From: an uncultured Clostridia bacterium
Lineage (GTDB): Bacteria; Bacillota; Clostridia; Christensenellales; UBA3700
Assembly: GCA_944383935.1 (NCBI GenBank)
Contig: CALWRK010000004.1
Span: 1-34,311, forward strand
Direction of reading: 5' to 3'
Length of the DNA: 34,311 nt
In this document: positions 184-34,303 of the stretch, one piece after another
Layout of the letters: each line of letters opens with the position of its first letter
Numbering within the stretch: the stretch's first letter is position 1
The notes under the pieces: generated by a model
Seen by the model: only the letters and a program-made list of their open reading frames with translations
The model's database searches: none
Told to the model about the DNA's origin: nothing
Position numbers and translations under genes: made by a program

Positions 184-315
184 CAAAACTGAACGAAATC
201 CACCTCGCTAAAAGCGAGCATTTTACAAGTGATATTTAGCACGAGAAAATAAACACATATCCGCTATAAATAATTATATATGTAAAATGTGTTCTAACAG
301 GGTTGGGTAAAGGTA
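184..315 (+). repeat. Structured dispersed repeat, copy A (inverted copy at 34173-34303)
   Basis: 184-227 is identical (44/44) to the reverse complement of 34260-34303. 272-315 matches the reverse complement of 34173-34216 at 38/44. Internal stems: ctcgc/gcgag, cattttaca/tgtaaaatg, gaac/gttc. Confidence 0.93.
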
Positions 316-330
316 GAATATAAAGAAATT

Positions 331-1023
331 TTACAGCTCGGCGACGGGAATGAGTTTGTTTCCCGTCAAATCGCACGAGGTCAAATAATAAGGTATGCCG
401 TCCTTGCACACTACCATGTCCGCTCTCACCCCTTTACCGTGCAGATGCCCGTACACCACCGCGTCCGCCCTCGCCTGTGAGATAAGACGGGTAAAATCGC
501 TGTCTTCATAGCGCGCGTTAAAAGGCGGATAATGACACATCGCCACGACAAAATCTCCCTCTCTGCGCTCTGCCGCCATTGCGCTAAGCGAAAGTTCCAA
601 CCTTATCTTTTCGCGATCGAGCAGTTTTAAGTCCTCTTCCGTCTGTCCGAACTGCCAAAGTCGGCTGCCGCACACCAATAACCTGCCTAATCTGACGCAG
701 TCGTTTTGCACAGCATACATCCCCTCTCCCAAGACGGCGCGAACCTTGCCCGGAGTGCTCCACCAATAATCGTGATTGCCGCGAATGATTACTTTTTGAC
801 CGGGAAGGGCGGACACCCTCTCTATATCGGGCAAAGCCTGAGGTATGTTCATACCCCAAGAGAGGTCTCCGGCAAGCAGAACCACGTCCTCTTTGCTCAC
901 CTTCTCCCTCCAATCGCCCTCTATGGCTTCCATATGTCCCTGCCAACTCTCTCCGAAGATGTCCATGGGCTTGTCCTTCACTCCCCCGGAAAGATGCAAA
1001 TCGCTTATAGCAAACACTTTCAT
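331..1023 (-). CDS. Calcineurin-like metallophosphoesterase (230 aa)
   Basis: Motifs SDLH, AGD, GNHD, CHYPP, YGHLH. Start placed at MKVFAISD (ATG at 1023), just below a consensus promoter. The ORF-track extension to 1548 overlaps the next gene. Confidence 0.9.
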   Translation of the reverse strand: MKVFAISDLHLSGGVKDKPMDIFGESWQGHMEAIEGDWREKVSKEDVVLLAGDLSWGMNIPQALPDIERVSALPGQKVIIRGNHDYWWSTPGKVRAVLGEGMYAVQNDCVRLGRLLVCGSRLWQFGQTEEDLKLLDREKIRLELSLSAMAAERREGDFVVAMCHYPPFNARYEDSDFTRLISQARADAVVYGHLHGKGVRADMVVCKDGIPYYLTSCDLTGNKLIPVAEL

Positions 1024-1030
1024 ATATGAT

Positions 1031-1059
1031 ATTATACCGAATTTTACGCTCTCTGACAA
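1031..1059 (-). promoter_or_regulatory. SigA-type promoter of the metallophosphoesterase gene
   Basis: TTGTCA-17 nt-TATAAT on the minus strand, then 7 nt to the ATG. Confidence 0.75.
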
Positions 1060-1148
1060 GCATATCAAGGGCGTAAAAGACGCACTCGGTCTAATACCCG
1101 CGCTTGCGTTCAAACCGGCTATGACACCCGCCCTAGTAATATAAAACA

Positions 1149-1176
1149 TTTTGCACGGCATCTCTGCCGTGCAAAA
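1149..1176 (-). terminator. Intrinsic terminator after the Cys-rich gene
   Basis: Perfect 12-bp inverted repeat ttttgcacggca-tctc-tgccgtgcaaaa, followed by tgtttt on the minus strand. Confidence 0.7.
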
Positions 1177-1199
1177 CGAGAGCCGCCCTAATAATATAA

Positions 1200-1835
1200 T
1201 TATTGCGGATATAGAGGCAACTCGAACACCCCGGCGCACTCTTGAGTATTGTACTCCTGGCAAGGGGGTATGTAGCAGTAACCATATGAGGGAACCAACA
1301 GCTGTACGGGCATTATGACTTTGAGTATTACGGTTATACACGCTGTCACCGTGAAGGTATCGTTCACGTCGTCGTATGTGCCCACCGTGGATACCACATT
1401 GCCTACCGCCTGCACCGTGTATGGAATGAGCGAGGGCTGAGGGGTGCGCAGCACCACATCTTTGGCAACTACCACGCTTGAAAGCGCGCTCCCCTGCCTT
1501 CCCGCCGCATCCGTAAAGGTGACCTGCACGGGGATAACTATATTGCACTGCACGCGAGAACGCCCGGGCAGATCGGGAAGATCGGTTATCACCAAATCCG
1601 TTACGGACGCCTCCGCCGCCTGTGAGCGTGCGGACACAAAGGTATACGGCTCGCTGAGTCCTGAGGGAGTTATGCCCGTGAGCGCCAGCTCCACATTGTC
1701 CGTCTGCTGACGGCTCATGCAGGCGTCAAACACCTTATCCACCTGTATACACGCTTTTTCGCACAAGCCGCTCATACCATTGCCCCTTATAACGCCCGGA
1801 ATCTTATCCGATTTGCAGTTATTGCAGAATGACAT
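1200..1835 (-). CDS. Cys-rich hypothetical protein, probable spore coat/exosporium protein (211 aa)
   Basis: GGAGG Shine-Dalgarno. Motif CEKACIQVDKVFDAC and C-terminal LLVPSYGYCYIPPC resemble clostridial spore morphogenetic proteins. SigK-like promoter upstream. Function is inferred. Confidence 0.7.
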   Translation of the reverse strand: MSFCNNCKSDKIPGVIRGNGMSGLCEKACIQVDKVFDACMSRQQTDNVELALTGITPSGLSEPYTFVSARSQAAEASVTDLVITDLPDLPGRSRVQCNIVIPVQVTFTDAAGRQGSALSSVVVAKDVVLRTPQPSLIPYTVQAVGNVVSTVGTYDDVNDTFTVTACITVILKVIMPVQLLVPSYGYCYIPPCQEYNTQECAGVFELPLYPQ

Positions 1836-1892
1836 ACTATATTCCTCCTATATTCCGGCCGACGCATAAAGCAAAGCGGCCTTTTCATAAAC

Positions 1893-1921
1893 AATCTATG
1901 AATAAGGAGAATATTTTGTGC
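1893..1921 (-). promoter_or_regulatory. SigK-like sporulation promoter
   Basis: Minus strand gcACa-16 nt-CATAGATT fits the AC..CATAnnnT consensus. Confidence 0.5.
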
Positions 1922-1969
1922 ATATCGCACTTGAAAGGATAAGTTTGAAAATAAAAATATACGGGCGGA

Positions 1970-2560
1970 TTACTCCGCCAAATATCTTTCGATGAGCGCC
2001 GATACCTCTTCCTTGCCCTGTTTGTTGAGAGAGGAAGTGATTATCAGGTTGTCTACACCCAATTTCAGCGCACTTGCGCAAGCGCTCTTTTGTCTGCCCG
2101 CCGCGGCGCGCGAGAGTTTATCCGCTTTTGTTAAAATCACCGCAAACGGCACTATGCTATCGCTCAAAAATTTTATCATCTGCTTGTCCAGCTCCGAAGG
2201 CTCTCTCCTGATATCCATGAGCACAAGGACAAGTTTTAGGCGGGGCGAAGACGTGAGATATGTACCCATCAAGACGTCCCACCTCCTCCTTTCCTCGTCG
2301 GAGAGTTTTACGGCGTACCCGTACCCGGGCAGATCCACCAGCATAAATTCTCCATCGTTTACGGAAAAATAGTTGATCAGACGGGTCTTTCCCGGCGTGG
2401 AGGAGGTTTTGGCAAGCCCTTTACGGCCTGTCAAATAGTTGATGAAGGAGGATTTTCCCACATTCGACCTCCCCGCCACGGCTATCTCTCCCATACCGAA
2501 ATCTCTTATGTTCTCGGGAGAGGCGACGGAGGTTATAAACTTTGCCGTCTTAATCTCCAT
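1970..2560 (-). CDS. engB: Ribosome biogenesis GTPase YsxC/YihA
   Basis: GRSNVGKSS, STPGKT, DLPGYG, TKAD. Follows clpX with a 1-nt overlap. Confidence 0.97.
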   Translation of the reverse strand: MEIKTAKFITSVASPENIRDFGMGEIAVAGRSNVGKSSFINYLTGRKGLAKTSSTPGKTRLINYFSVNDGEFMLVDLPGYGYAVKLSDEERRRWDVLMGTYLTSSPRLKLVLVLMDIRREPSELDKQMIKFLSDSIVPFAVILTKADKLSRAAAGRQKSACASALKLGVDNLIITSSLNKQGKEEVSALIERYLAE

Positions 2561-3774
2561 TATGCGCTCTTGTATTCCACCTCGGGCGGCTTACTGCCTT
2601 CTATGCAGTCTTTGGTTATGCGCACGCGCGCGATCGTATGCGAGGGAGCTTCGTACATGAGATCGGTCATCACGTTTTCCACTATCGACTTCAAGCCCCT
2701 CGCCCCCGTGTGCAGCTTTATCGCCTTGTCAGCCACCGCATACAGCGCTTCCCTGTCGAATTCCAGCTCTACGCCGTCGTATCCGAGCAGTTTGCGATAT
2801 TGCTTGACGAGCGCATTCTTAGGCTCCGTCATGATGCGCACGAGCGCATCCTCGTCCAGGGCGTTCAAGCCAACTATAATGGGAACTCTGCCCACAAATT
2901 CGGGAATAAGCCCGTACTTTATCAAATCGTCCGGCTGAATATCCTTGATTATGTCGCCGAAATTGTGATCGCCCGGACGGCGTACGTTCGCGCCGAAGCC
3001 CAAGCCCGAGCTATCCTTACGCTTGTCCACTATCTTGTCCAAGCCCACGAACGCTCCTCCGCAAATAAACAGAATATTTGTGGTGTCTATGTTTATGCAC
3101 TCCTGCTGGGGGTGTTTTCTGCCGCCCTGAGGCGGTACGCTCGCCACGGTACTCTCTATGATTTTAAGTAGCGCCTGCTGCACGCCCTCGCCGGAGACAT
3201 CGCGCGTTATGGACATATTCTCGCTTTTTCTGGCTATTTTATCTATTTCGTCGATATAGACTATGCCCAGCTGCGCCTTTTCCACGTCATAGTCTGCCGC
3301 CTGTATGAGTTTGAGCAGGATATTCTCCACGTCGTCCCCCACATAGCCCGCTTCCGTAAGCGTCGTGGCGTCCGCCACGGCAAAAGGTACATTCAAAATC
3401 TTTGCCAACGTTTTGGCAAGCAAGGTCTTGCCGCTGCCGGTAGGTCCCATCATCAGCACGTTGGATTTTTCCAGCTCCACGTCGTCGTCGCCTATGGAGT
3501 TTATGCGTTTATAATGGTTATATACGGCAACGGAGAGTATCTTCTTGGCAGATTCCTGCCCTACGATATACTCATCCAGTTTGGATTTTATCTCCTGCGG
3601 GGTCAAGAGCTTGAATTTGGGAGATTTGTTTTCCTCCCGCTCCCTGTCTTTGAGCAATTCGTTGCACACTTCTATGCACGCCTTGCAGATGTAGGTGCCG
3701 TTTGCGCCCAGCAAGGCGCCCACCTCTTCTTCCGACCTGCCGCAAAAAGAGCATCTCAATTTTTTATCGTCCAC
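2560..3774 (-). CDS. clpX: Clp protease ATP-binding subunit ClpX
   Basis: N-terminal C4 zinc finger (CSFC..ICKAC), [34 protein letters not shown] loop. GTG start. Confidence 0.98.
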
Positions 3775-3776
3775 TA

Positions 3777-4373
3777 TTAACCTCTGGTATAATATATTTT
3801 ATCTATCAAGCCGTATTTCAGGGCGTCTTCCGCGGTCATGAAATTATCTCTGTCCGTGTCCTGATATACCTGCTCGTAACTCTGCCCCGTATTCTTCGCC
3901 AATATCTTGGTGAGGCGCTCTTTCACATCCTGCAAAAGTTTTGCCCTGATCATCACATCGGTAGCCTGACCCTGAGCTCCGCCCAAGGGCTGGTGGATCA
4001 TTATCTCGCTGTTGGGCAACGCGAAACGCTTACCCTTGGCTCCGCTGGAAAGCAGGAATGCGCCCATGGAGGCAGCCATACCTATACAGATGGTGCTAAC
4101 GTCGCACTTGATATAGTTCATCGTGTCATAGATAGCCATACCCGCCGTAACGGAGCCGCCAGGGCTGTTTATATACAGGCTTATATCCTTGGTCGCGTCC
4201 TTTGCTTCCAAAAAGATAAGCTGGGCAACTATGCTGTTCGCGCTCTCGTCCGTGACTTCTCCGGAGAGAAATATAATTCTGTCTTCCAGCAGTCTGGAAT
4301 ATATGTCGTACGCGCGCTCGCCGCGATCCGTCTTATCTATGACGGTAGGTATCAAAAAATTCTTGGGTTCCAT
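3777..4373 (-). CDS. clpP: Clp protease proteolytic subunit
   Basis: [42 protein letters not shown]. Confidence 0.98.
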
Positions 4374-4472
4374 ATTTCCTCCTTATAATTGTATCGTATC
4401 CCGCACGAGGATATACCTGCACGCGGGATATGACAATTTTCGAGTATTATTTTATTCTAAGCCTATTTATTT

Positions 4473-5759
4473 TTACTTGATGGTATTGTTCTCTTTGAGA
4501 TATGCCATAAGTTTCTTGTTGAGCGCTTCGTTCTTGATATATGATTCGTAGTGCTCGTTGAAATCTTTCTTTATCTCCTCAACCGGCTTGTTCTGCTTTG
4601 CGGCAAGATCTGCGTATACCGCTTCCTCGTCCTCGGGCGTAACTTCGATGCCGGCAGCTTTGATCACCTGCTCCATGACCAGCCTTGTTCTGACCGTCTT
4701 TTCGGCGGGTTCTTTGTACGTTTCTTTCAGCTGCTCGGGCGTCTGTCCGGTATACTTGAAGTAGTCTTGGATATTCATGCCCTGATACATGAGCCTGTAA
4801 GCGAACTCGTTCATCATCTCTTCCGCCTCGTCGTCTATCATGCACTGAGGGACTGTAACGGTGGCGTTAGCAACCACGGTATCCATTATCTTGCGCGTCA
4901 AAGCGGCGTCGGCAGCGTCGCTCTTGCGTTCGGTAATCTTCTTCTTTATGTCCGCTTCGTATTCTTTGAACGTGTCGAAATCGGATACGTCCTTTGCAAA
5001 CTCATCGTCCGGCTCGGGCAGCTTCTTTATCGTGATGTCCTTCACCGTGACTACGAATATCGCGTCCTTGCCCGCCAGCTTTTCCGCATGATACTGCTCG
5101 GGGAATTTGACGTTGACGCTCTTGCTCTCGCCCACGTTCATGCCAACCACGCCCTCTTCGAATCCGGGAATAAAGGTGCCGGAACCCAAGACGAGTTCGT
5201 AGTCGGACGCGGTGCCGCCTTCGAACACCTCTCCGTCCACACTGCCCGTGTAGTCTATCTTGACCCTGTCGCCCATCTGAGCGGGACGATCGGTAACCTG
5301 ATCCCACCAACCGGCGTTCTCGCGCGCCCTGTTTATCTCCTCGGCAACTTCGTCTTTTGTCACCTTAACTTTGTCCTTGGTAAATTCTATGCCCGTGTAT
5401 GCACCCAGCGTGACCGTGGGTTTGAGCTGCACTTCGGCGGTGTATTGCAAAGTGCTGTCTGTGATTGCAGTTATGCTTACCTCGGGTCTGTCTACGGGGA
5501 AAAGATCGGGCTCCGCGTCGATAACGGCGTCGTAGCTCTTGGGCAGCACGATGTCCAAAGCCTCGTCGAAAAATACCTGAGGTCCGTACAGCCTTTCTAT
5601 AAACGCGCGAGGGGCATGACCTTTACGGAAGCCGTCCACGGCATACTTGCCCCTGGTTTTGAGGTAGGCTTCGTTCAAAGCGTCCTTCCATTGCTGACTA
5701 TCCACGTCTATGGTGAATTTCACGCGATCGTTTTCCAACATTTCCTTGGTATAACTCAT
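4473..5759 (-). CDS. tig: Trigger factor (428 aa)
   Basis: GFRKGHAP ribosome-binding motif and FKBP domain (FEGG, FIPGFEE). Start set at MSYTKE, which has an AGGAG RBS. Confidence 0.97.
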   Translation of the reverse strand: MSYTKEMLENDRVKFTIDVDSQQWKDALNEAYLKTRGKYAVDGFRKGHAPRAFIERLYGPQVFFDEALDIVLPKSYDAVIDAEPDLFPVDRPEVSITAITDSTLQYTAEVQLKPTVTLGAYTGIEFTKDKVKVTKDEVAEEINRARENAGWWDQVTDRPAQMGDRVKIDYTGSVDGEVFEGGTASDYELVLGSGTFIPGFEEGVVGMNVGESKSVNVKFPEQYHAEKLAGKDAIFVVTVKDITIKKLPEPDDEFAKDVSDFDTFKEYEADIKKKITERKSDAADAALTRKIMDTVVANATVTVPQCMIDDEAEEMMNEFAYRLMYQGMNIQDYFKYTGQTPEQLKETYKEPAEKTVRTRLVMEQVIKAAGIEVTPEDEEAVYADLAAKQNKPVEEIKKDFNEHYESYIKNEALNKKLMAYLKENNTIK

Positions 5760-5797
5760 AAATGTGTTCTCCTTGCTTGCTTTATTACAGTAGGATA

Positions 5798-5826
5798 ATT
5801 CTATCATATGAAGCGAAATATTGCAA
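5798..5826 (-). promoter_or_regulatory. SigA-type promoter of tig-clpP-clpX-engB
   Basis: TTGCAA-17 nt-TAGAAT with an extended TG. Confidence 0.7.
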
Positions 5827-5835
5827 TTATTTTTA

Positions 5836-5864
5836 TTGCAAAAACCATGTAATTATTTTATAAT
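5836..5864 (+). promoter_or_regulatory. SigA-type promoter of rqcH
   Basis: TTGCAA-17 nt-TATAAT, then 6 nt to the ATG at 5871. Confidence 0.75.
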
Positions 5865-5870
5865 ATACAT

Positions 5871-7592: not shown

Positions 7593-7593
7593 A

Positions 7594-8514: not shown

Positions 8515-9040
8515 CTGCGCCACCGCTGAGAAGAGTGCCCTTTTTCTTGGAAAAATCTCCCTCTTTATATCCGAAAAAGATGTATATGATAAGTACGAAT
8601 ACGCCCAGCACCAGATAGATGTCCGCTACGTTTCCTATGGCAAAGTCTATGTTGAACATACTTTTGAGAAAATCATAGCTTATAAAGTCGCGCACATAGC
8701 CGAATACCAGCCTGTCAAACAGATTGCCTATCGCCCCTCCGAGTATCAGCAGGAAGGAAAACCGGAAGAGATGCGGTGTGTTGGGACGGAATAGCAAGAC
8801 GAACGCGAACAGCGCGCACTCCACAAAAGTGAGCGCGATGAGCAGCGTCTTGTTCCCTTCGAAAATTCCGAAAGACGCGCCGTAATTATGTGCGCACTTA
8901 ATGGAGAATACTCCGTCGATAACGGTGGCTCCACCCTCTTCAAATAGGTAGAACACCAGATATTTCGTGGCTATATCCGTGAGAATCACCGCCAGCAATA
9001 CGGCGACTTCAATAAGTATCTTTTTAACGGTTTTAGTCAT
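8504..9040 (-). CDS. lspA: Lipoprotein signal peptidase II
   Basis: DIATK, NYGASFG, GGAIGNLFDRL, VRDF, NVADI; four hydrophobic segments. Confidence 0.95.
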   Translation of the reverse strand: MTKTVKKILIEVAVLLAVILTDIATKYLVFYLFEEGGATVIDGVFSIKCAHNYGASFGIFEGNKTLLIALTFVECALFAFVLLFRPNTPHLFRFSFLLILGGAIGNLFDRLVFGYVRDFISYDFLKSMFNIDFAIGNVADIYLVLGVFVLIIYIFFGYKEGDFSKKKGTLLSGGADGR

Positions 9041-12446: not shown

Positions 12447-12713
12447 GCTGTGCTAGGTGGGGAGCTAGCGGTGCCCTGTACCTGCAATCCGCTATAGCAG
12501 GACTGAACGCTGTTCTAGGCTTTATTTATGGAAGGTCTGCCTTCGATAAGCGATGTCGATACCAAGGTCTTGTGCAATCGTGCACTGCGAACCATGTCAG
12601 AGCTTGACCGCAGCAGCATTAAACAGACCGCATGATGTGCCACGAGGTAGCTTTGGAGGAGTTGGCTGTCGTTGTTACGCTTCGGTAAATACTGTCGAAA
12701 ACAGATGCACAGC
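12447..12713 (+). ncRNA. ffs: Large bacterial SRP RNA (scRNA with Alu domain)
   Basis: Alu-domain sequence GGGGAGcTAGCGGTGCCCTGTACCTGCAATCCGCTaTAGCAGG as in Bacillus scRNA. S-domain GAACCATGTCAG..AGCAGCATTAA. Terminal helix gctgtgc (12447-12453) with gcacagc (12707-12713). ~267 nt. Confidence 0.95.
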
Positions 12714-24103: not shown

Positions 24104-24150
24104 ATATATGGTCAAGCTATACACGCTTAAATACATTTACGAGGATTTTT

Positions 24151-25683: not shown

Positions 25684-25716
25684 TATTTCCCCTTGAACAT
25701 CCGCTCCTATGAGCAC

Positions 25717-25745
25717 GGGCACGGCAAAAAGCCGTGCCCTCTTTT
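25717..25745 (+). terminator. Intrinsic terminator after galT
   Basis: gggcacggc-aaaaa-gccgtgccc-tctttt. Confidence 0.8.
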
Positions 25746-25765
25746 ATTACACTTATACGATATGT

Positions 25766-25791
25766 AAAAAAGGGACCGCAAACGCGGCCCC
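25766..25791 (-). terminator. Intrinsic terminator of the decarboxylase operon
   Basis: Minus strand gggccgc-gttt-gcggtccc-tttttt. Confidence 0.75.
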
Positions 25792-25811
25792 GTATTTTAC
25801 GCAAGTTCTTG

Positions 25812-27203: not shown

Positions 27204-27222
27204 AATTTACCTCTTTTACCTT

Positions 27223-28719
27223 TTAGAATACGCCGAAGCAGGCAAGCAAGACGCCCGCAGCGACTGCAGAGCCGATAACGCCGGAGACGTTAGGACCCAT
27301 TGCGTGCATGAGCAGATAGTTGTTGGGATTTTCTTCCTGCCCCACGTTATGTGCTATACGCGCAGCCATAGGCACGGCGGATACGCCCGCGGCGCCGATG
27401 ATGGGGTTTATCTTGCCCTTTGTGACAGCACACATCAGCTTTCCTATAAGTACGCCGCCCGCGGTGCCCAAAGCGAATGCCACGACGCCGATGACGAGTA
27501 TGAGCAGGGTCTGAGTGGTAAGGAAGTTGTCTGCCGTAGCCTTGGAGCCGACCATTACACCCAAGAGAATGGTGACGATATTGATGAGCTCGTTGCTCGC
27601 CGTCTTTGCAAGACGAGGCACGACTCCCGATTCCCTGAACAGGTTACCCAGCATGAGCATACCTATAAGCGGTATTGCCGAAGGCAGGAGCACGCCCACG
27701 ACGCCCGTAACCACCAGCGGGAAGATGACCTTCTCCGTCTTGGATACGGGACGGAGCTGTTCCATGACGATTCCCCTCTCCTTCTTCGTGGTGAGCAGCT
27801 TGATGATAGGCGGCTGAATTATCTTTATCAGAGCCATATACGAGTAAGCCGCAACCGCTATGGACGCCAGCAAGTGAGGCGCCAGCTTTGTGGTGACGTA
27901 TATAGCCGTAGGACCGTCCGCGCCTCCGATGATACCGATGGAAGCAGCTTCTTCGCCCGTGAAACCGATAAGGATCGCCACGGTGAAAGTGACGAATATA
28001 CCCAGCTGAGCCGCCGCGCCCATGAGCATACTGCTCGGGTTGGCTATCATGGGACCGAAGTCCGTCATCGCGCCGATGCCCATAAAGATGAGCGGCGGGA
28101 AGATGACCCATTCAACGCCTTTATACAGGTAATAGAAAATACCTTCGTTTGCCACCACGCCGGATGCCACGGAGATGGTATTACCCGCATATATGCTGGA
28201 AGTATTTATGTAATCGAGGATAACGCCCTGTATGGACAGCCCCGATTCCGCCGTCCACGGCACGCTTTCAATAAGCAGTTGCTGCGCTTGTGCACTCAGT
28301 GCGCCCCATGTTTCGGGGATACTCTCCAAGTTGAGGCTTGCAAGCGCACTCGCGAATGCGTTGTGATCGATATTGTACGCCCACGCCAGATTGTACGCCC
28401 ACGCCAGCAGTGACTGCTCAGTGCCCTTTGCTATCACGGTATCCGTTACCGTATCCGTGATTATCCAGCCCGTGGTGCCGTACAATATATTGTACGCGCC
28501 CGGTATATTTATAATAAACATACCAAAGCCGATTGCCACCAGCAAGTTGGGCTCGAATTCTTTATATACTGCCAAATAGATGAGAATACACGCTATCGCC
28601 AGCATTATAAAGTTTTTCCAGATGCCCGCGCCCGTAGTCATGAAGCCCGTGCTCTCCCACAGGGTCTTCATCGCCTCTACGAACTCGAACGAGGAAAGTG
28701 AAGAGAATATATCTACCAT
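27223..28719 (-). CDS. oadB: Na+-translocating decarboxylase beta subunit
   Basis: FEPNLL, IFMGIGAMTDFGP, GIIGGADGPT, AAYSYM, GVSAVPMAAR, HAMGPNVSGVIGSA. Carries a ~115-aa insertion. Confidence 0.95.
   Translation of the reverse strand: MVDIFSSLSSFEFVEAMKTLWESTGFMTTGAGIWKNFIMLAIACILIYLAVYKEFEPNLLVAIGFGMFIINIPGAYNILYGTTGWIITDTVTDTVIAKGTEQSLLAWAYNLAWAYNIDHNAFASALASLNLESIPETWGALSAQAQQLLIESVPWTAESGLSIQGVILDYINTSSIYAGNTISVASGVVANEGIFYYLYKGVEWVIFPPLIFMGIGAMTDFGPMIANPSSMLMGAAAQLGIFVTFTVAILIGFTGEEAASIGIIGGADGPTAIYVTTKLAPHLLASIAVAAYSYMALIKIIQPPIIKLLTTKKERGIVMEQLRPVSKTEKVIFPLVVTGVVGVLLPSAIPLIGMLMLGNLFRESGVVPRLAKTASNELINIVTILLGVMVGSKATADNFLTTQTLLILVIGVVAFALGTAGGVLIGKLMCAVTKGKINPIIGAAGVSAVPMAARIAHNVGQEENPNNYLLMHAMGPNVSGVIGSAVAAGVLLACFGVF
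28372..28407 (-). repeat. Exact 18-bp in-frame tandem duplication (LAWAYN x2) in oadB
   Basis: attgtacgcccacgccag at 28372-28389 and 28390-28407. Confidence 0.95.
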
Positions 28720-28735
28720 ACTTACCTCCGCGGCA

Positions 28736-29131
28736 TTAAGCTATGGTGCAAAGCAATGCGCCGGTGTCTACGTTGGCGCCTTCGTTTACGCAATAAGTGA
28801 TCACGCCGGACTTGGGCGCAACAACGGGAGTATCCATCTTCATGGCTTCCAAAGTGATTATCTCTTTGCCCTCTTCAACGGTGGCTCCGTTGGAATAGCA
28901 CAGCTTCTTGACCAGACCGGGCATGGGGGAATTCACCGGATCGCCCTTGCCTGCCGCTGCGGGAGCGGGAGCTGCTGCGGGAGCGGGGGCTGCTGCGGGT
29001 GCTGCGGGAGCTGCCGCCACGGGTGCCGCGGCTACGGGAGCCGCAGGTGCGGGTGCGGCTGCAATACCGCCCACTTCCTCTACTTCTACGGCGTAAGATT
29101 TACCATTGACGTTTACATTGAACTTGCGCAT
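28736..29131 (-). CDS. Biotin carboxyl carrier subunit (MmdC/GcdC/1.3S type)
   Basis: MRKFNVNVNGKSYAVEVEE N-terminus, Ala/Pro linker, SPMPG, EAMKM biotinylation site. Confidence 0.95.
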   Translation of the reverse strand: MRKFNVNVNGKSYAVEVEEVGGIAAAPAPAAPVAAAPVAAAPAAPAAAPAPAAAPAPAAAGKGDPVNSPMPGLVKKLCYSNGATVEEGKEIITLEAMKMDTPVVAPKSGVITYCVNEGANVDTGALLCTIA

Positions 29132-29161
29132 TTTTTATTTCTCCTTGAATAATTTTCTTTA

Positions 29162-29701
29162 TTATTTGATCTCTTTTATAGAGCGTACGCGGAATTTCAG
29201 GTTGGAACGCTCGTATGCGGGCATTGCGACTTCGTAGTAGGCGTATATCGCTGCCATAACCGCCGCAATCTCCTCTTCCTCATCGGAATTCGCGCTTGCC
29301 GCCTCGGCTGCGGGCGCATTGCTCTTCTTGCTTGCTTCAAGCCTGGCGCGCGCGGCTTCCAGCTTGGCTTGCTTTTCTGCAGCCCTCCTCGCCTTTGCCT
29401 CCGCCTTGCGTTGGGCTCTGTCCTTACCCTTTCCTTCCGACGCTTTCTCCGCAGCATCTACCATGGCTTTGAATGCCTTGATGAGGAAGATAAGCACGAT
29501 AAGCACCACGAATACGACGATAAGACCGATTGCAGCCACCTGAAGTCCGGTGAGCAGCCTCTCTCCGCCATTCATATCCGCAATGCCCATATCGTCCGGT
29601 TCCGCCGGGTCGCTTATCATCTCACAGGCGCCGAAAGCCAGCGTCATACACACGATGAGCGCCATAAGGGCAAGGGTGATGAAAAGTTTTTTCTTGTTCA
29701 T
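29162..29701 (-). CDS. oadG: OadG/MmdD-family membrane subunit with a lipoprotein-like signal peptide
   Basis: GLIVVFVVLIVLIFLI TM helix, EEEIAAVMAAI, C-terminal FRVRSIK; N-terminus MNKKK..LAFGAC. Confidence 0.85.
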   Translation of the reverse strand: MNKKKLFITLALMALIVCMTLAFGACEMISDPAEPDDMGIADMNGGERLLTGLQVAAIGLIVVFVVLIVLIFLIKAFKAMVDAAEKASEGKGKDRAQRKAEAKARRAAEKQAKLEAARARLEASKKSNAPAAEAASANSDEEEEIAAVMAAIYAYYEVAMPAYERSNLKFRVRSIKEIK

Positions 29702-29714
29702 ATGTTGCCCTGCC

Positions 29715-31106
29715 TTATATACCTAATAACATCAAGAGCGCGGAGCTCACGCAAGGGCGAATGTTGCCCGCTTCTATCACGTTGTCTATATAACCTTCTC
29801 CCGCCGCAGTGAGGGGATTTGCCATATCGTCGTTAAACTTTTTCTCCAACGCCTTCATACTCTTCGCCGTCTTGCCCTGTTTGAGCTCTTCGGTGTAGAA
29901 CACATGGACGCCGGTGTCCGCAGTCACGGGAGCCACTTTCGCGTCTGTGGTGGCGAGCGTATAGTCGAAGCCTATACCCTTGCTCATGAGTGCGGAGTAT
30001 GCCGCGCCCACCGCGTTGCCGCAAGCCACGGCTATCATGGGATGTTCGTAAGACGCAACCGCCTTGAAAAGGCAAGCCGTCTTGCACGCAAATCCGGACA
30101 GCTCCTGTTTGAGATCGGGATTAAAGCCCTTGCTGTCCACCAAAGAGATGAGGGGCAGACCGAACGCGTTGGCTTTATTGATAAAGCCCGCAGCTTTCTT
30201 CACCCCGTCTTCGCTCATATATCCGTCATTTTCGCCACTGTCTTGCGCAACTATCGCCACGCTGATGCCGTTCACCTTTGCGTAAGCGCAAACCACATCT
30301 TTGGCGTAATCGGCGTTTATTTCTATATATTTGCCGCCGTCCGTAAGAGCTTCCAGCGCGCCTTTCACGCTGTACTTTTTGGTGAGAGCGGACATCACGC
30401 GGTTGGGATCGTCATCCACGCCCTCCTTCTCCACTATGCCTACGGTGGCAAGGAGGTCTACGAGTTTGCCCTTCAAATCCTTTAATGAAGAGTAGGTATC
30501 GGACGCCAAGGCGCTTGTTTCTTTATATGCGTCATAGCCTACCATCTTGTTAAGTTTGGGAACGGCAGTTAACTTGGAAGCCAAATACATGGGGGAATTC
30601 ACGGACATCACCGCATCCTTGCTCATATATACATAGTCCGCCATTGCCGCAAACGTGGCGGTCATGCCCACGGCTACGCCCTTGACTATACAGATATGAG
30701 GCACCGTTTCCGCCACTTCCGCCGCCAAAGCCAAAAGCGAAGCATACGCTTCCATAACCGCGGCGCCCTCATCCAGCCTCGCACCCGAACAGTCGAGTAC
30801 GGAGATGAGCGGTGTGCCCGTTGCGCACGCCCTCTTCATGCACTTGGCAATCTTCTTTGCGGAAGCCGCGCCTATGCTGCCCAGCATCACATCCGCGTTT
30901 TGTGCAAAGATGTGTACCGGAGTGCCCTCTATCGTGGCATATCCGGTTACGACGCCTTCACCCAAAGCGCCCTCTCGCGCGCCGACCACGAACGCGTCCG
31001 TTTCGACAAACGAAGCCTCGTCCACGATGCCGTCGATAAAACTCTGCGCTTTTTCGCTGACTTTATCCACGGCAGCCTGCGCCGACACCAGTTCCTTTTT
31101 GTCCAT
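29715..31106 (-). CDS. Divergent acyl-CoA carboxyltransferase-family protein (PccB/MmdA/12S fold)
   Basis: GEGVVTGYATIEG, FAQN, LDCSGARLDEG, LISLVDSKGF, AAGEGYIDNVI; the Gly-rich oxyanion motifs are altered. Confidence 0.88.
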   Translation of the reverse strand: MDKKELVSAQAAVDKVSEKAQSFIDGIVDEASFVETDAFVVGAREGALGEGVVTGYATIEGTPVHIFAQNADVMLGSIGAASAKKIAKCMKRACATGTPLISVLDCSGARLDEGAAVMEAYASLLALAAEVAETVPHICIVKGVAVGMTATFAAMADYVYMSKDAVMSVNSPMYLASKLTAVPKLNKMVGYDAYKETSALASDTYSSLKDLKGKLVDLLATVGIVEKEGVDDDPNRVMSALTKKYSVKGALEALTDGGKYIEINADYAKDVVCAYAKVNGISVAIVAQDSGENDGYMSEDGVKKAAGFINKANAFGLPLISLVDSKGFNPDLKQELSGFACKTACLFKAVASYEHPMIAVACGNAVGAAYSALMSKGIGFDYTLATTDAKVAPVTADTGVHVFYTEELKQGKTAKSMKALEKKFNDDMANPLTAAGEGYIDNVIEAGNIRPCVSSALLMLLGI

Positions 31107-31172
31107 TATAAAAACCTCCGAAATTTTCGAGTTGATTTACTTGGTATGCAAAAACAATTTGCACTATTACTA

Positions 31173-31201
31173 ATTGTATAATTAAAGTAAAAAATTTGCA
31201 A
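31173..31201 (-). promoter_or_regulatory. SigA-type promoter of the decarboxylase operon
   Basis: TTGCAA-17 nt-TACAAT. Confidence 0.65.
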
Positions 31202-31278
31202 GCGATTGACCGCGATTTTCTCACTTTTTGCGACAAAATTTTAACTCAGAAACCACTTTACTTACCCGACCGCAAAGG

Positions 31279-31301
31279 AAAAGCGCCGATAAAGCGGCGC
31301 T
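31279..31301 (-). terminator. Intrinsic terminator after rluB
   Basis: Minus strand agcgccg-ctttat-cggcgct-ttt. Confidence 0.6.
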
Positions 31302-31331
31302 GCCTGTACTTATGGAAATTATGCGGCTGTT

Positions 31332-32045
31332 TTACAGATTTTTGAGGTATGCCACCTCGTCTTCATGAAGATAGCGCCACGCTCCGCGCGCCAAACCGCC
31401 CAGCCTCAAATCGCCTATGGCTATCCTCTTCAAAAATACGACTCTCCTCTCCACCGCTTCGAACATACGCCTAACCTGTCTGTTTCTGCCCTCCGTGATG
31501 GTGACGGTCAGCTTTGCGCCGTCCTCGCCCTGCTCCAACAGCTTGACCTTGCTGCGCTTGGTCATCACCCCGTCTATCTCTACGCCCTTGCGCAATTTTG
31601 CGAGTATATGTTCGGGAAACTGCCCTTCCGCCCTTACAAGATAGGTCTTGGGCACTTCCCCCGAAGGGTGAGCCAAGCGGTTTACGAGATCTCCGTCGTT
31701 GGTCAAGAGCAGCAGTCCCTCCGTGTCGTAGTCCAGCCTGCCCACAGGCACCAAATGCGGGACATTGACGTCTATGTAGTCATACACAGTCTTTCTCCCC
31801 TTGTCGTCGCGCACGGAAGTGATGCACCCCTTGGGCTTATACAACATTATATATGTAAATTTAGACACGGGGACGACCTTTTTGCCGTCCACCATGACCG
31901 TGTCATTATCCGTTTCTATCTTTGTCCCCGGCTGAGTCACCACCGCGGAGTTCACCTTTACTCTGCCCGAAAGTATGAGCTCATCCGCGCCCCTGCGCGA
32001 CGCCGCTCCGCAACTTGCAAGATATTTGTTCAGCCTCACTTCCAT
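31332..32045 (-). CDS. rluB: RsuA/RluB-family pseudouridine synthase
   Basis: RLNKYLA..SRR S4 domain, YKPKG, VGRLDYDTEGLLLLTNDG, EGRNRQVRRM. Confidence 0.93.
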   Translation of the reverse strand: MEVRLNKYLASCGAASRRGADELILSGRVKVNSAVVTQPGTKIETDNDTVMVDGKKVVPVSKFTYIMLYKPKGCITSVRDDKGRKTVYDYIDVNVPHLVPVGRLDYDTEGLLLLTNDGDLVNRLAHPSGEVPKTYLVRAEGQFPEHILAKLRKGVEIDGVMTKRSKVKLLEQGEDGAKLTVTITEGRNRQVRRMFEAVERRVVFLKRIAIGDLRLGGLARGAWRYLHEDEVAYLKNL

Positions 32046-33144
32046 ACTCCGCCACCATCTCCGAATCGTAATTTGTCACGGCATAAAGCTGCCTGACGTC
32101 GGTTATATCATTTATAGTATATAATGCGGAGGAAAAAAGCAAGCGATTATCCGCAAAAACCTCTATTCTGCCTATGTCGCTGCCCGCTTTCACGGGTAAA
32201 TCCAACCTGTCGAGTGCAGTTATTTCATAGCGTAACTTACCTATATCCGACTTTTTTGCGGCAAAATCCAAGCCGCCCCTCACGCTCACGGCCACCCCCT
32301 CTCCGCCGTAGAGCTCCTCTCCCTCGCCCGCTCCGCGCACGGCGCAGTAATCGGAAAACGCCTTATCCATATATGCCATGCTGTCCTGCCACATATTGTA
32401 ATGATTGAGAACTACGCACACCAGCTGCATTCCATCTCTTTCGGCGGCGCTCACAAGACATCTGCCCGCTTTCGTGGTGTACCCCGTCTTTACGCCGTTG
32501 GCGCCGTCATACATATTCAGCATCTTATTTTTATTGTACCAAGTGCGCGCTGCGGTATACTCGCTTGCGGGTATGTCGAACTTTTTTGCGGAAACTATCT
32601 CTTTGAATGTTGCGTTATTCATAGCGTCGCTCGTTATCAGCGCAAGGTCGCGAGCAGAGGTATAATGCTCGTCATCGTGCAGCCCGTGCGGATTGCAGAA
32701 ATGTGTGTTTTCAAGATGGAGGCTATGAGCATAATCGTTCATCATTTTAACAAAATTGTCCATATTTCCTCCGGCATGAAGAGCGAGCGCAACCGCCGCG
32801 TCGTTGCCCGATTGAAGCATGAGAGCGTACAACAGCTGCAAAACGGTAAACCGCTCCCCCTGTTTGAGATAGACGGAGGAGCCCTCTATGCCGACTGCTT
32901 GCTCGGGAATGATAACTTCTTGTGAAAGCTCGCACGAATTCAGCACCGTAACAGCCGTTGCAATCTTAGTGGTGCTTGCCATGGGGAGAGGTAAATCCAT
33001 GTTATTCCCCGCCAAAATCTGCCCGCTTTTTTGATACATGACCACATAAGACGAGCCCGATTCGGCTGCGCATTTTCTACAACTTATTGTTATAATTGTA
33101 GAGATTATTATGAAAATAAGAATAATTGATAATAGTTTTAGCAA
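31981..33144 (-). CDS. dacB: D-alanyl-D-alanine carboxypeptidase (S11, DacB-like)
   Basis: ASTTK (SxxK), SGN (SxN), NPHGL, VKTGYT; N-terminal signal/anchor. The TTG 33144 start is tentative. Confidence 0.88.
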   Translation of the reverse strand: MLKLLSIILIFIIISTIITISCRKCAAESGSSYVVMYQKSGQILAGNNMDLPLPMASTTKIATAVTVLNSCELSQEVIIPEQAVGIEGSSVYLKQGERFTVLQLLYALMLQSGNDAAVALALHAGGNMDNFVKMMNDYAHSLHLENTHFCNPHGLHDDEHYTSARDLALITSDAMNNATFKEIVSAKKFDIPASEYTAARTWYNKNKMLNMYDGANGVKTGYTTKAGRCLVSAAERDGMQLVCVVLNHYNMWQDSMAYMDKAFSDYCAVRGAGEGEELYGGEGVAVSVRGGLDFAAKKSDIGKLRYEITALDRLDLPVKAGSDIGRIEVFADNRLLFSSALYTINDITDVRQLYAVTNYDSEMVAEYGSEAEQISCKLRSGVAQGRG

Positions 33145-33149
33145 TATTT

Positions 33150-33506
33150 TTACTTCTTTATCACATTTAACGCCGCTTTTGCCAAGTTCAACCATTTATT
33201 CTCCTCCTTATCTTCCTTTTCCTCAACTACCCTGTATTCTCCGTTTTCTTTAATTAAGAAACCGCACGGCGTCAAAGTCACGCCACCGCCGCCCGCCGTT
33301 GCGAACGGGAATCGCAACATACTCTTAGGCGAGCTTTCACTATACTCTCCCCCGCCGTACACAAATCCGACAGACACCTTACAATAGGGAATCACCACGG
33401 TGTTTTCATCCAGCTTCACCGGTTCCCCCACTACATTGCCTCCCCCCGCCATCTGCTTCAAGTTTTCCATGGTCAATCCCATTATATCCATAATTGTTTT
33501 ATCCAT
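33150..33506 (-). CDS. ytfJ: Sporulation protein YtfJ/GerW family (118 aa)
   Basis: VVGEPV..VIPYCKVSVGFVYGGGE..GGGGVTLTPCGFL. GGGAGGAG RBS before MDKT. Confidence 0.9.
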   Translation of the reverse strand: MDKTIMDIMGLTMENLKQMAGGGNVVGEPVKLDENTVVIPYCKVSVGFVYGGGEYSESSPKSMLRFPFATAGGGGVTLTPCGFLIKENGEYRVVEEKEDKEENKWLNLAKAALNVIKK

Positions 33507-33523
33507 ATCTCCTCCCTTTTCTC

Positions 33524-34084
33524 TTATCGTGCAAGTCTTTTCACCTTTCTTCCACTTATTGCCGATCGGAGGGAAAACAGGCTTCCCCACCCCGCCACGG
33601 CAAAGACATTTATCTTCATCCCCTTTACGTCATATGCGGGATTTACGCATACTCCTCCTCTCTTGACTGATACAAACCTATTTATCAGATATATGATCAA
33701 CTCTGTAAGGCATGAATTTACAACGGCAGTATCGGACGCATTCTCCAATCCCGCAGAGGCATTTACCGTGAGCGCCCGTAATTTCAACTTTCCGCGCCGC
33801 CTCTGCTGCCCGTCATGAACTGCACTCTTTTTTTTCCCGCTCTTTCCGTCCCTTTTACCAGTAATATGATGCAGCCTCCCTCCGTTCAACTGGCAATACA
33901 GCCTCCCGTCGCTTTCAAACGCCCTGAAACGCAACACAAGCAGGCTTAAAACGCTTATGCTCGCCGCCGCATACCCTTGCGATAAATCCGCACTCAGCTG
34001 CACTTCTATCCCCGCGCTTACCGCTATCACAAACAGCAGCAAGAAAAACGTAAGCGCGCCCAATATCCACCACGCAAAAATCAT
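33524..34084 (-). CDS. YtfI-like (DUF2953-like) membrane-anchored protein (186 aa)
   Basis: N-terminal TM helix, GLENASDTA motif (cf. GxxDAAxTA), VNPAY. Position directly upstream of ytfJ. Confidence 0.7.
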   Translation of the reverse strand: MIFAWWILGALTFFLLLFVIAVSAGIEVQLSADLSQGYAAASISVLSLLVLRFRAFESDGRLYCQLNGGRLHHITGKRDGKSGKKKSAVHDGQQRRRGKLKLRALTVNASAGLENASDTAVVNSCLTELIIYLINRFVSVKRGGVCVNPAYDVKGMKINVFAVAGWGSLFSLRSAISGRKVKRLAR

Positions 34085-34172
34085 ACGATAATTTTGTGCA
34101 ATGCGAATACTTTTATTAAAACCCGCAAAACCCACGTCGGAACACTTCGATCAAGCATTTTACAAATAATGT

Positions 34173-34303
34173 TACCTTTACCCAACCGCGCCCGAACACA
34201 TTTTACAAATATAATTGATTTTATCTGATATATGTTTTTTGTCTGTATTACTAGTTACCTGTAAAATGCTCGCTTTTAGCGAGGTGGATTTCGTTCAGTT
34301 TTG
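34173..34303 (-). repeat. Structured dispersed repeat, copy B (inverted relative to 184-315)
   Basis: See copy A. An extra gcattttaca arm lies at 34155-34164. Confidence 0.93.

What the first reader, a model, noticed from the sequence alone, without database searches (positions are those of the whole stretch)
184..34303. A ~130-bp structured repeat brackets the whole window in inverted orientation
Seen: 184-315 and the reverse complement of 34173-34303 share a 44/44 block, a diverged AT-rich middle of 43-44 nt, and a 38/44 block. The conserved parts include exactly those that pair: gaac/gttc and cac/gtg close a junction holding a ctcgc-taaaa-gcgag hairpin and a cattttaca/tgtaaaatg stem. The variable middle is the loop of that stem. 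A ggttgggtaaaggta tail follows. Inference: conserved stems around a variable loop of constant length suggest a multi-copy structured element (REP/MITE-like non-autonomous element or repeated ncRNA) whose mobiliser is encoded elsewhere. It may also be why the sequence ends here. I do not recognise the family.
Basis: partly seen in the sequence, partly recalled or inferred. Interest (0 to 1): 0.75.

Follow-up and report, generated by a model that had tools for sequence, protein, structure and literature searches.

The report
Small non-autonomous transposon at contig ends
The repeat at both ends of this window is the right half of a small, many-copy, transposase-less mobile element (a MITE) of an uncultured chicken-gut Clostridia genus; it explains why the assembly breaks there but is otherwise an ordinary kind of genome parasite.

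Summary
In detail: 184-315 and the reverse complement of 34173-34303 match 44/44, 27/44 and 38/44. It is not a 130-bp unit that brackets cargo. It is the right half of a MITE family. Complete copies are 215-263 bp (short) or 307-426 bp (long). They have 27-bp terminal inverted repeats (TACC...GAACAC / GTGTTC...GGTA) and are bounded by TA, with a G-TA-C-like target preference. The window's genome holds 40 termini, and 32 of its 260 contig ends lie inside copies. That is why the window starts and stops in one. The 34 kb between the copies is collinear chromosome in four congeners. The family occurs in 4 of 8 species of the genus and was found nowhere else searched. Every paired copy is MITE-sized, and no parent transposase was found. 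The nested stems covary strongly (26 of 60 pairs). No Rfam family matches, and the termini show no strand-specific wobble bias. Verdict: a new member of a known kind, of modest interest. One odd trait remains: the terminus middles are hypervariable but stay matched, while an internal core is better conserved.

The parts
1..315 (+). Long-form MITE copy (type-1 termini), cut at its left side by the contig start. About 37 nt are missing: the 27-nt left terminus plus TTTAAGCGGG.
   Evidence: Aligns at 88-90% over query 2-315 to complete 351-352-bp copies inside contigs of congener G004. G000 C24 1-75 (reverse complement) overlaps window 1-38 and carries the missing terminus. Contigs of four public runs run on leftward from position 2 as ...GAACACTTTAAGCGGGC (table 7).
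1..175 (+). About 170-nt palindromic module that replaces the 57-nt left-body module of the short form. It contains a GC-rich hairpin (about 150-171) that is also repeated on its own in congeners.
   Evidence: Comparison of short and long forms. Query positions ~95-184 match many separate sites in G002, G005 and G007.
184..227 (+). In short-form copies it pairs with the left sub-terminal region. Its last 10 nt (218-227) form the 5' half of the right-arm stem.
   Evidence: Alignment A1 and consensus fold, helices 3 and 6. The left body differs by only 3 of 113 between subfamilies t1 and t2.
228..280 (+). Diverged A+T-rich loop of the right arm.
   Evidence: 27/44 identity between the two window copies. 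21 of 71 differences between t1 and t2 in this region.
281..290 (+). 3' half of the right-arm stem (tgtaaaatgt).
Evidence: Helix 6 is 99% paired, with 3 pairs showing double changes.
289..315 (+). Right terminal inverted repeat GTGTTCTAACAGGGTTGGGTAAAGGTA. The last TA (314-315) is the presumed duplicated target.
   Evidence: The same 27-mer appears with different flanks at many sites and in both orientations of complete copies. TA follows in 88-89 of 91 ends.
34173..34311 (-). Second copy (type-2 termini, GTGTTCGGGCGCGGTTGGGTAAAGGTA at 34173-34199), in inverted orientation and cut by the contig end inside its body.
   Evidence: G000 C122 holds a longer related copy with the same body and the long-form module.
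331..1548 (-). Flanking host gene (calcineurin-like metallophosphoesterase). Its stop codon lies 15 nt from the left copy's terminus. Context only, not part of the element.
   Evidence: Pfam PF00149, E = 3e-14. Orthologues found in 8 of 8 genomes of the genus.

Best explanation
[quoted passage not shown] A complete element is 215-263 bp (short form) or 307-426 bp (long forms, which carry an extra or duplicated internal palindromic module). It has no gene. It ends in 27-bp terminal inverted repeats (5'-TACC + ~15 variable nt + (T/C)(A/C)GAACAC ... GTGTTC... + GGTA-3') and sits between two TA dinucleotides. The most likely mechanism is inferred, not shown. A transposase supplied in trans binds the two ends, cuts the element out or copies it, and inserts it at a TA in A+T-rich, mostly intergenic DNA, duplicating the TA. 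This is what IS630/Tc1-mariner enzymes do. The window is a whole contig whose two ends fall inside two different copies, because the short-read assembler could not resolve this ~20-copy repeat. The 34 kb in between is ordinary chromosome. Shown: copy number, termini, TA bounds, symmetric target preference, size classes, modular variants, restriction to one genus, association with contig ends, synteny of the interior, and nested covarying inverted repeats. Inferred: the transposition chemistry, the transposase family, and that TA is duplicated rather than being part of the element.
For: (1) Multi-copy with unrelated flanks. There are 42 matches to 184-315 in the 1.37-Mb genome and 34-40 termini. 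Termini by pattern in the genus: G000 37, G004 48, G007 12, G005 7, and 0 reversed-pattern controls.
(2) Complete copies. 13 copies in G004 have both termini and different flanks. There are 35 distinct complete copies in four genomes and 54 with metagenome contigs added.
(3) Matched termini. Within a copy the two termini differ by 2.33 of 27 on average, and 13 of 54 copies are perfect. Between copies the figure is 5.63.
(4) Target. Outward of ...GG comes T in 89 and A in 88 of 91 ends, then C in 50 of 91 (background 0.26), then A+T-rich sequence. The preference is the same at both ends, as expected for a palindromic G-TA-C-like target.
(5) Empty-site-like evidence. Two G004 copies lie inside another repeat family. 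Their flanks, joined with one TA kept, align without a gap to an uninterrupted paralogue in G000 C122.
(6) No gene. No ORF of 80 aa or more lies within 1-315, and every partner terminus lies 190-430 bp away.
(7) Assembly breaks. 32 of 260 contig ends of G000 lie inside copies. In four public runs from four studies the summed contig depth over the element is about 50-150 times that of the flank.
(8) Interior is not cargo. The two flanks lie on one contig about 33-34 kb apart in G005, G002, G004 and G001. G001 and G002 have no copy of the element.
(9) Class definition. Bacterial MITEs are described as small, with TIRs, 5'-TA-3' at the termini and stem-loop transcripts, and usually without a known parent IS (passages of PMC2229807; PMC10969869).
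Against: No autonomous element with these termini was found. All paired termini are MITE-sized in four genomes and in 19 of 23 metagenome loci; 3 of the other 4 are cut by contig ends and 1 has a partner with an indel.
No IS630-type DDE_3 domain was found in any of 8 genomes of the genus. No DDE_Tnp_1, DDE_Tnp_1_2 or IS110 type was found either. The rve-type IS30-like element that is present has unrelated ends. These are incomplete MAGs (76-98%), in which multi-copy IS often fail to assemble, so absence is weak evidence.
No true orthologous empty site was seen. Strains in four public runs all carry the left insertion. The paralogues used have AA or AG, not TA, at the aligned dinucleotide. So TA could belong to the element rather than be a duplication.
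The conservation pattern is atypical for a transposase-bound TIR. The middle 17 nt of the termini differ at 9 of 17 between subfamilies whose left bodies differ at 9 of 113.
Confidence: 0.85

Rival explanations
1. A dispersed family of structured non-coding RNA genes. On this view the conserved stems exist because the transcript folds and acts as an RNA.
For: Internal stems covary. Helix 3 (left sub-terminal region with the conserved core) has 7 pairs with double changes, and helix 6 (cattttaca/tgtaaaatg) has 3. Overall 26 of 60 pairs show double changes against 14.8 +/- 1.8 in shuffles (0 of 500 reach it) and 3-6 in slid controls. The internal left body is better conserved than the terminus middles.
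Against: No Rfam family matches at gathering score in the window other than SRP RNA, and none at E <= 1 on four complete copies. Mismatches between the termini show no wobble excess on the strand modelled (G.T 23, A.C 52, other 44 in 52 copies). The 132-nt piece folds with z = -1.8 only. Promoter- and terminator-like matches are near shuffle level and not conserved between species. TIRs, TA bounds and unrelated flanks are transposon traits. Inverted repeats in DNA can stay matched through template-switch correction of quasi-palindromes (established knowledge, recalled), so covariation here does not prove selection on RNA. Only contigs, no raw RNA reads, were available.
Confidence: 0.07
2. A structure-dependent mobile element. 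The single strand folds, the paired termini form a stem, and an enzyme that reads shape rather than sequence (as in IS200/IS605, REP/RAYT or integron attC sites) cuts at its base.
For: The terminus middles vary freely (26 distinct left termini in 54 copies) yet stay complementary within a copy, while the outer TACC and inner GAACAC are fixed (0 of 20 differences). The whole 239-nt strand folds as DNA into one long hairpin (-58.1 kcal/mol, z = -10.6). No DDE transposase with matching ends was found.
Against: Y1 (HUH) transposase genes were found only in G002, which lacks the element, and those genes are not flanked by related repeats. 27-bp TIRs and TA bounds with a symmetric target are the signature of DDE cut-and-paste elements (PMC2229807 passages). 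Matched arms can arise by mutation bias alone.
Confidence: 0.06
3. The two inverted copies delimit a 34-kb composite transposon or an invertible segment.
For: Two related copies in inverted orientation lie at the two ends of the contig.
Against: The interior is collinear, with both flanks on one contig, in four congeners, two of which have no copy of the element. It holds housekeeping content such as SRP RNA. The two copies belong to different subfamilies: 5 of 27 terminus positions differ and the loops are 61% identical. With 32 of 260 contig ends inside copies, about two contigs with both ends in copies are expected by chance (own arithmetic). Inversion by recombination between the copies cannot be excluded, but nothing suggests it.
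Confidence: 0.02

Closest known systems
RUP (repeat unit of pneumococcus), the MITE of Streptococcus pneumoniae thought to be moved by IS630-Spn1
   Same: A Bacillota host, a small gene-less element, TIRs, insertion at TA, and about 100 intergenic copies (passages of PMC2229807).
   Different: RUP is 107 bp with short TIRs (9 contiguous bp in that review's table) that resemble a resident IS630 member. Here the element is 215-426 bp with 27-bp TIRs, and no IS630-type gene or matching IS was found. Sequence similarity to RUP was not tested, because no RUP sequence was at hand.
Correia / NEMIS elements of Neisseria
   Same: About 24-27-bp TIRs, TA at the termini, two size classes that differ by an internal segment, transcripts that fold into long stem-loops, and an unknown mobiliser (PMC2229807 passages and table).
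   Different: A different phylum and an unrelated sequence family, as far as can be told (not aligned here). This element is longer and has three nested arms and several terminus subfamilies in one genome.
IS630/Tc1-mariner insertion sequences (for example ISY100)
   Same: TA target duplication and TIRs bound by the transposase (abstract of PMC2170065 in the listing). A symmetric target around TA is seen here.
   Different: No transposase gene lies in the element, and no DDE_3 domain occurs in 8 genomes of the genus. Membership as a derivative is therefore not shown.
REP/BIME elements with RAYT transposases, and IS200/IS605 ends
   Same: Short palindromic repeats recognised as folded DNA. The matched-but-variable arms here recall recognition by structure.
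   Different: REPs are 20-40-nt single hairpins without long TIRs or TA bounds (recalled). No Y1 gene occurs in the genomes that carry this element.

Membership tests
MITE (bacterial miniature inverted-repeat transposable element) | Small (tens to a few hundred bp) and without a transposase gene | tested here: met
   54 complete copies of 215-426 bp. No ORF of 80 aa or more in window 1-315.
MITE (bacterial miniature inverted-repeat transposable element) | Terminal inverted repeats | tested here: met
   27-nt termini. 13 of 54 copies are perfectly complementary, with a mean of 2.33 mismatches.
MITE (bacterial miniature inverted-repeat transposable element) | Many copies at unrelated sites | tested here: met
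   91 distinct outward flanks. 37, 48, 12 and 7 termini in four genomes.
MITE (bacterial miniature inverted-repeat transposable element) | Target-site duplication | tested here: inconclusive
   TA bounds 88-89 of 91 ends and the target preference is symmetric. Flanks plus one TA align without a gap to a paralogue. But no true orthologous empty site was seen.
MITE (bacterial miniature inverted-repeat transposable element) | Termini shared with an autonomous IS that can act in trans | tested here: not met
   No such IS in the genus, in 401 genomes of the order, or in the viral, metagenome, plasmid or phage collections as searched. Reviews say this is the usual state for bacterial MITEs.
IS630/Tc1-mariner-derived MITE | TA duplication | tested here: inconclusive
   
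IS630/Tc1-mariner-derived MITE | A DDE_3 / mariner-type transposase in the host or a donor, with like termini | tested here: not met
   PF13358: 0 of 8 genomes, and the controls rang. PF01359: 0 of 5, but no control rang, so that result is uninformative.
REP/RAYT system | A Y1 (RAYT) gene flanked by the repeats | tested here: not met
   PF01797 was found only in G002, which lacks the element. Those genes are not flanked by the GC-hairpin module.
Any Rfam RNA family | Covariance-model match | tested here: not met
   Only SRP RNA in the window at gathering score. Nothing at E <= 1 on four complete copies with their flanks, 6409 bases.
IS30-family derivative | Termini like those of the resident IS30-like element | tested here: not met
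   That element's ends, defined from two G002 copies, are unrelated to the MITE termini. Calling it 'IS30-like' rests on an rve domain plus recall of the family's sequence look.

The most novel reading that the evidence does not exclude
The element may not be a passive IS630-type MITE. It could be a shape-recognised mobile hairpin, in which only the outer TACC/GGTA and the inner GAACAC/GTGTTC are read as sequence, the ~15 nt between must merely pair, and a strongly conserved internal core (window 184-227 and its left partner) carries the cis-acting function. It would be moved by an enzyme outside the known transposase families searched here. That would account for four observations: 26 distinct yet self-matched termini, a left body that is 97% identical between subfamilies whose termini and loops differ by 26-30%, the three-arm covarying fold, and the lack of any matching transposase in eight genomes.
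Probability: 0.08. Interest if true: 0.7.

Novelty: new member of a known kind. Interest (0 to 1): 0.25.

Why it matters
Practically, this one family explains about an eighth of the contig breaks in this MAG (32 of 260 ends). It is abundant in chicken-gut metagenomes, so knowing its ends helps scaffolding, and its insertions could serve as strain markers for an uncultured Clostridia genus. Biologically, it adds a well-defined family to the poorly catalogued MITEs of Bacillota: TA-bounded, with 27-bp TIRs and a modular body. It also offers a clean natural data set of several subfamilies in one genome and four species. That data set bears on how the two ends of a MITE stay matched, and on whether internal conserved cores, rather than the termini, carry function. 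It is not a new kind of system on present evidence.

Tried and rejected
(1) Known RNA family: Rfam at gathering score on the window and at E <= 1 on four copies gave nothing for the element. No tRNA or tmRNA was found.
(2) CRISPR-like array. The 37-nt spacing of matches at four contig ends suggested one. Reading the sequence showed a tandem duplication of the right end with no spacers. Rejected.
(3) Parent IS. Unpaired termini in G007 and G005 all turned out to have degenerate partners 190-430 bp away, or to be half copies next to ordinary genes such as leuCDB in L085.
(4) Transposase hunts: DDE_3, DDE_Tnp_1, TnpB zinc ribbon (G000 only), DDE_Tnp_1_2, IS110 and mariner (control silent) found nothing. 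Y1 was found only in G002. rve hits were IS30-like, IS3-like and one rve fragment at a contig start (G004 C9, family not determined), and none has MITE-like ends.
(5) A self-comparison of G000 found no IS-sized repeat; the longest was 518 nt at 78%.
(6) Collections. The core pattern hit genome contigs only in the genus-mates, plus one extra MAG contig that is the same insertion as in G005. The terminus pattern gave 0 hits in viral contigs and 23 loci in metagenome contigs, none IS-sized (19 with a MITE-sized partner, 1 with an indel partner, 3 cut by contig ends). The terminus in 401 genomes of the order gave only two single one-mismatch hits without partners, so chance. There was no blastn match in plasmids or phages.
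(7) Empty site for the window's own insertions. The orthologous sites in congeners are too diverged (about 73% in the gene), and upstream there are non-coding repeat arrays; G007 has a MITE end at the same site. Contigs of four public runs all carry the insertion. Parts of those runs without cover are not evidence.
(8) Expression: only assembled contigs were available, so none were laid for RNA and nothing can be said.
(9) Promoter and terminator scans were near shuffle level.
(10) A RAYT link for the GC-hairpin module in G002 was not supported.
(11) Earlier notes of this scan returned nothing.
Full report
**1. The observation**

Window 184-315 and the reverse complement of 34173-34303 are a true inverted repeat. 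The repeat finder reports two arm pairs: 184-230/34257-34303 (47 nt, 98%) and 244-315/34173-34244 (72 nt, 81%). Within the window's own 1.37-Mb, 130-contig genome (G000, 88% complete; the window is the whole of contig C4) the second copy scores E = 3e-32. Chance is excluded.

**2. What the repeat belongs to**

The same query has 42 matches in G000, most of them at contig ends. It also occurs reverse-complemented at the far side of longer copies (G000 C81, C70). So it is a terminal inverted repeat.

- A scan for this 27-mer (up to 5 mismatches) found 34 termini in G000.
- They form two subfamilies: type 1 as above, and type 2 GTGTTCGGGCGCGGTTGGGTAAAGGTA.
- Each subfamily has 'right-end' (…TGTAAAAT + terminus) and 'left-end' (terminus + TTTAAGCGGG…) contexts.

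G000 breaks at nearly every copy, so I used a congener, G004, in which copies lie inside contigs.

- Thirteen G004 copies have both termini and different flanks. They are 238-239 bp (short form) or 351-352 bp (long form), with one of 307 bp.
- Across G000, G004, G005 and G007 there are 35 distinct complete copies.
- With metagenome contigs added there are 54, of 215-426 bp. The metagenome copies were picked with a terminus pattern, so they do not widen the terminus variety fairly.

The window's left copy (1-315) is a long form that lacks about 37 nt at the contig start.

- G000 C24 overlaps window 1-38 and carries the missing terminus.
- Contigs from four public runs continue leftward from position 2 as …GAACACTTTAAGCGGGC.
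- The right copy (34173-34311, inverted) is a type-2 copy cut inside its body.

**3. Ends and target**

- Outward of …GG, 89 of 91 distinct ends have T and 88 have A.
- The next base is C in 50 of 91, against a background of 0.26. The following ten positions are A+T-rich.
- The preference is the same at both ends, as expected if the target is a G-TA-C-like palindrome whose central TA is duplicated.
- No longer duplication is visible in the 13 G004 copies.

I found no orthologous empty site.

- Two G004 copies (L063, L064) sit inside another short repeat family. Their flanks, joined with one TA kept, align without a gap to an uninterrupted paralogue in G000 C122.
- The paralogues, however, carry AA or AG at the aligned dinucleotide.
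- So a 2-bp TA duplication is well supported but not proven.

**4. Why the window ends in it, and what lies between**

- With a relaxed terminus pattern G000 has 40 termini, and 32 of its 260 contig ends lie inside a copy.
- In contigs of four public runs from four studies, the summed depth over the element is some 50-150 times that of the unique flank. The figure sums all contigs, other organisms included, so it is not a copy number.
- The two flanks of the window lie on one contig about 33-34 kb apart in G005, G002, G004 and G001.
- G001 and G002 have no copy of the element.
- The interior carries SRP RNA and no other repeat of note.

The 'bracketing' is therefore an assembly coincidence. 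With 32 of 260 ends in copies, about two such contigs are expected by chance (own arithmetic). It is not a composite transposon.

**5. Distribution**

- A blastn search with window 1-315 over 41 genomes (G000 and 40 relatives) hit only the genus: 4 of 7 congeners, and 0 of 33 genomes of other genera.
- In G002 the matches were to the internal module only.
- The terminus pattern is present in 4 of 8 genomes of the genus, G000 among them, with no reversed-pattern control hits.
- A scan of 185,579 species-representative genomes with the conserved core gave 49 loci. All lie in three genus-mates, plus one extra MAG contig holding the same insertion as G005.
- One genus-mate's record title is Candidatus Alloclostridium intestinigallinarum (Bacillota, Clostridia incertae sedis).
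- A sample of 401 genomes of the order (G000 included) gave only two single one-mismatch hits without partners, which is chance level.
- Runs that hold the window's left end are mostly chicken or bird gut metagenomes.

**6. The mobiliser**

None was found.

- All paired termini are 190-430 bp apart.
- Unpaired termini proved to be degenerate or half copies next to ordinary genes.
- In 23 metagenome loci with 2.5-kb flanks, 19 had a MITE-sized partner, 3 were cut by contig ends, and 1 had a partner with an indel.
- The viral collection gave 0 hits. Plasmids and phages gave no blastn match.
- G000 has no IS-sized repeat.

Pfam searches on whole genomes gave:

| Domain | Result |
|---|---|
| DDE_3 (IS630 type) | 0 of 8 genomes |
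| DDE_Tnp_1 | 0 in G000; 0 of 5 others |
| DDE_Tnp_1_2 | 0 of 5 |
| TnpB zinc ribbon | 0 in G000 |
| IS110 type | 0 of 5 |
| Mariner type | 0 of 5, but no control genome rang |
| Y1 (HUH) | only in G002, which lacks the element |
| rve | 4 of 5 genomes |

- The rve genes are an IS30-like element (G000 C125, G002, G007), an IS3-like element (G007), and an rve fragment at a contig start in G004 (C9), whose family was not determined.
- The IS30-like element's ends, defined from two G002 copies, are unrelated to the MITE termini.
- These are MAGs of 76-98% completeness, so absence is weak evidence.
- Reviews state that a known parent IS is the exception for bacterial MITEs (passages of PMC2229807).

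**7. Structure**

- The 132-nt piece alone folds at z = -1.81.
- The whole 239-nt short form folds as DNA at -58.1 kcal/mol, z = -10.6.
- On this structure 97.6% of cells pair.
- 26 of 60 pairs show double changes, against 14.8 +/- 1.8 in shuffles (0 of 500 reach it) and 3-6 when the partners are slid.

| Stem | Cells paired | Pairs with double changes | Copies broken |
|---|---|---|---|
| gaac/gttc | 82.5% | 0 | 6-7 of 20 |
| ctcgc/gcgag | 91% | 1 | 4-5 of 20 |
| cattttaca/tgtaaaatg | 98.9% | 3 | up to 2 of 20 (one pair only) |

In the window it is replaced by the long-form module and cut by the contig end.

Covariation in a DNA palindrome is not proof of RNA function. Matched arms are also expected from transposase constraints and from template-switch correction of quasi-palindromes (recalled knowledge). 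Two results speak against a strand-specific RNA:

- No Rfam match.
- The mismatch spectrum between the termini: G.T 23, A.C 52, other 44 among 1,404 positions in 52 copies, counted without correcting for shared descent.

Promoter- and terminator-like matches are near shuffle level.

**8. An oddity worth recording**

- Between subfamilies t1 and t3b, the middle 17 nt of each terminus differ at 9 of 17 on both sides.
- The outer TACC and the inner GAACAC do not differ (0 of 20), and the left body differs at 9 of 113.
- Between t1 and t2, the left body differs at 3 of 113, while the terminus middles differ at 5 and 4 of 17 and the right loop at 21 of 71.
- There are 26 distinct left termini among 54 copies. 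The two ends of a copy differ by 2.33 on average, against 5.63 between copies.

The best-conserved part is thus internal, and the terminus middles behave like a spacer that must stay matched. Possible causes are gene conversion of the body between subfamilies, several transposase specificities, or recognition of a folded strand. I could not tell these apart.

**9. Comparison with known elements**

The element meets the working definition of a bacterial MITE in size, TIRs, copy number and TA termini (PMC2229807 passages; PMC10969869 passages). The closest described relatives in kind are:

- RUP of pneumococcus: a Bacillota host, a TA target, and a link to IS630-Spn1.
- Correia/NEMIS: about 24-bp TIRs, TA, and two size classes that differ by an internal segment.

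Membership in an IS630-derived group is not shown, because no such transposase or matching IS was found.

I found no description of this family. 'Alloclostridium' occurs in two papers, neither about repeats by title or abstract start. Two MITE searches listed nothing on Clostridia gut MAGs among the 12 rows shown each. For PMC11602168 and PMC2170065 I saw only listings and abstract starts. The supplements of the large MITE survey (PMC11602168) were not opened and might list this family.

**10. Verdict**

This is a new MITE family of a known kind. It explains the contig ends. The mechanism (trans-acting transposase, TA duplication) is inferred. Interest is modest. The matched-but-hypervariable termini and the conserved internal core are the only features that might repay further work.

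Noticed in passing
window 12448-12712 (+): Bacterial large SRP RNA (RF01854, 166.9 bits, full length). It shows that the interior is core chromosome.
   Followed up: no
L068 (G005), L069 (G002), L070 (G004), L071 (G001): the ~1.4 kb upstream of the orthologue of window gene 331-1548: In four congeners this region shows degenerate ~60-70-nt tandem-like units in the 500 nt that were read. A tblastx of the ~1.4 kb against G000 gave no hit. In G007 (L072) the same site carries a MITE end at a contig start. The nature of these arrays is unknown.
   Followed up: partly
window ~95-184 (core ~129-171); G002, G005 and G007 sites: The GC-rich hairpin module inside the long form (…GGGTGGAGCGCCCCGCGCTCCC…) is repeated on its own at many sites in G002 (which lacks the MITE), G005 and G007. 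Some sites are clustered 115-276 nt apart. It looks like a separate REP-like repeat captured by the MITE. The IS200-type Y1 genes of G002 are not flanked by it.
   Followed up: partly
G000 C14 19030-19105, C55 7653-7728, C58 1-76, C82 5556-5631: Four contig ends carry a head-to-tail duplication of the last 37 nt of the element (two right termini in tandem, no spacer). Contigs of runs X2 and X7 show a related form with 18 other letters between two right ends (table 5c). This could be aberrant transposition or replication slippage. It was not seen in G004.
   Followed up: partly
G000 contigs C33/C51/C76 (~410 nt), C29/C35/C96/C121/C124/C130 (~170-300 nt), C47/C85 (365 nt): Several other short interspersed repeat families are present, at 86-93% identity. 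No IS-sized repeat exists. MITE copies in G004 are inserted into one of these families. The genome is unusually rich in small repeats for its size.
   Followed up: no
G000 C125 5507-6232 (-); G002 L111 and L117; G007 L118: An IS30-like insertion sequence (rve domain). It is cut by the contig end in G000 and has two 99%-identical copies in G002. Its ends are GGTGAATTATACTATTAAGTGCAACA… and …TGTTGCACTTAGTTTGACAATTCATC. One G002 copy lacks about 275 nt of the 5' part of the gene region.
   Followed up: partly
window 28956-29066: Runs of a 9-nt period (GCTGCGGGA and variants; family D1). This is probably a low-complexity Ala/Gly-rich coding stretch.
   Followed up: no
L157 301-566 and G005 L096: One copy sits directly after what reads as the 3' end of an acetyltransferase-like ORF, with identical flanks in two separately assembled MAGs. 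So some insertions are shared between closely related lineages.
   Followed up: no
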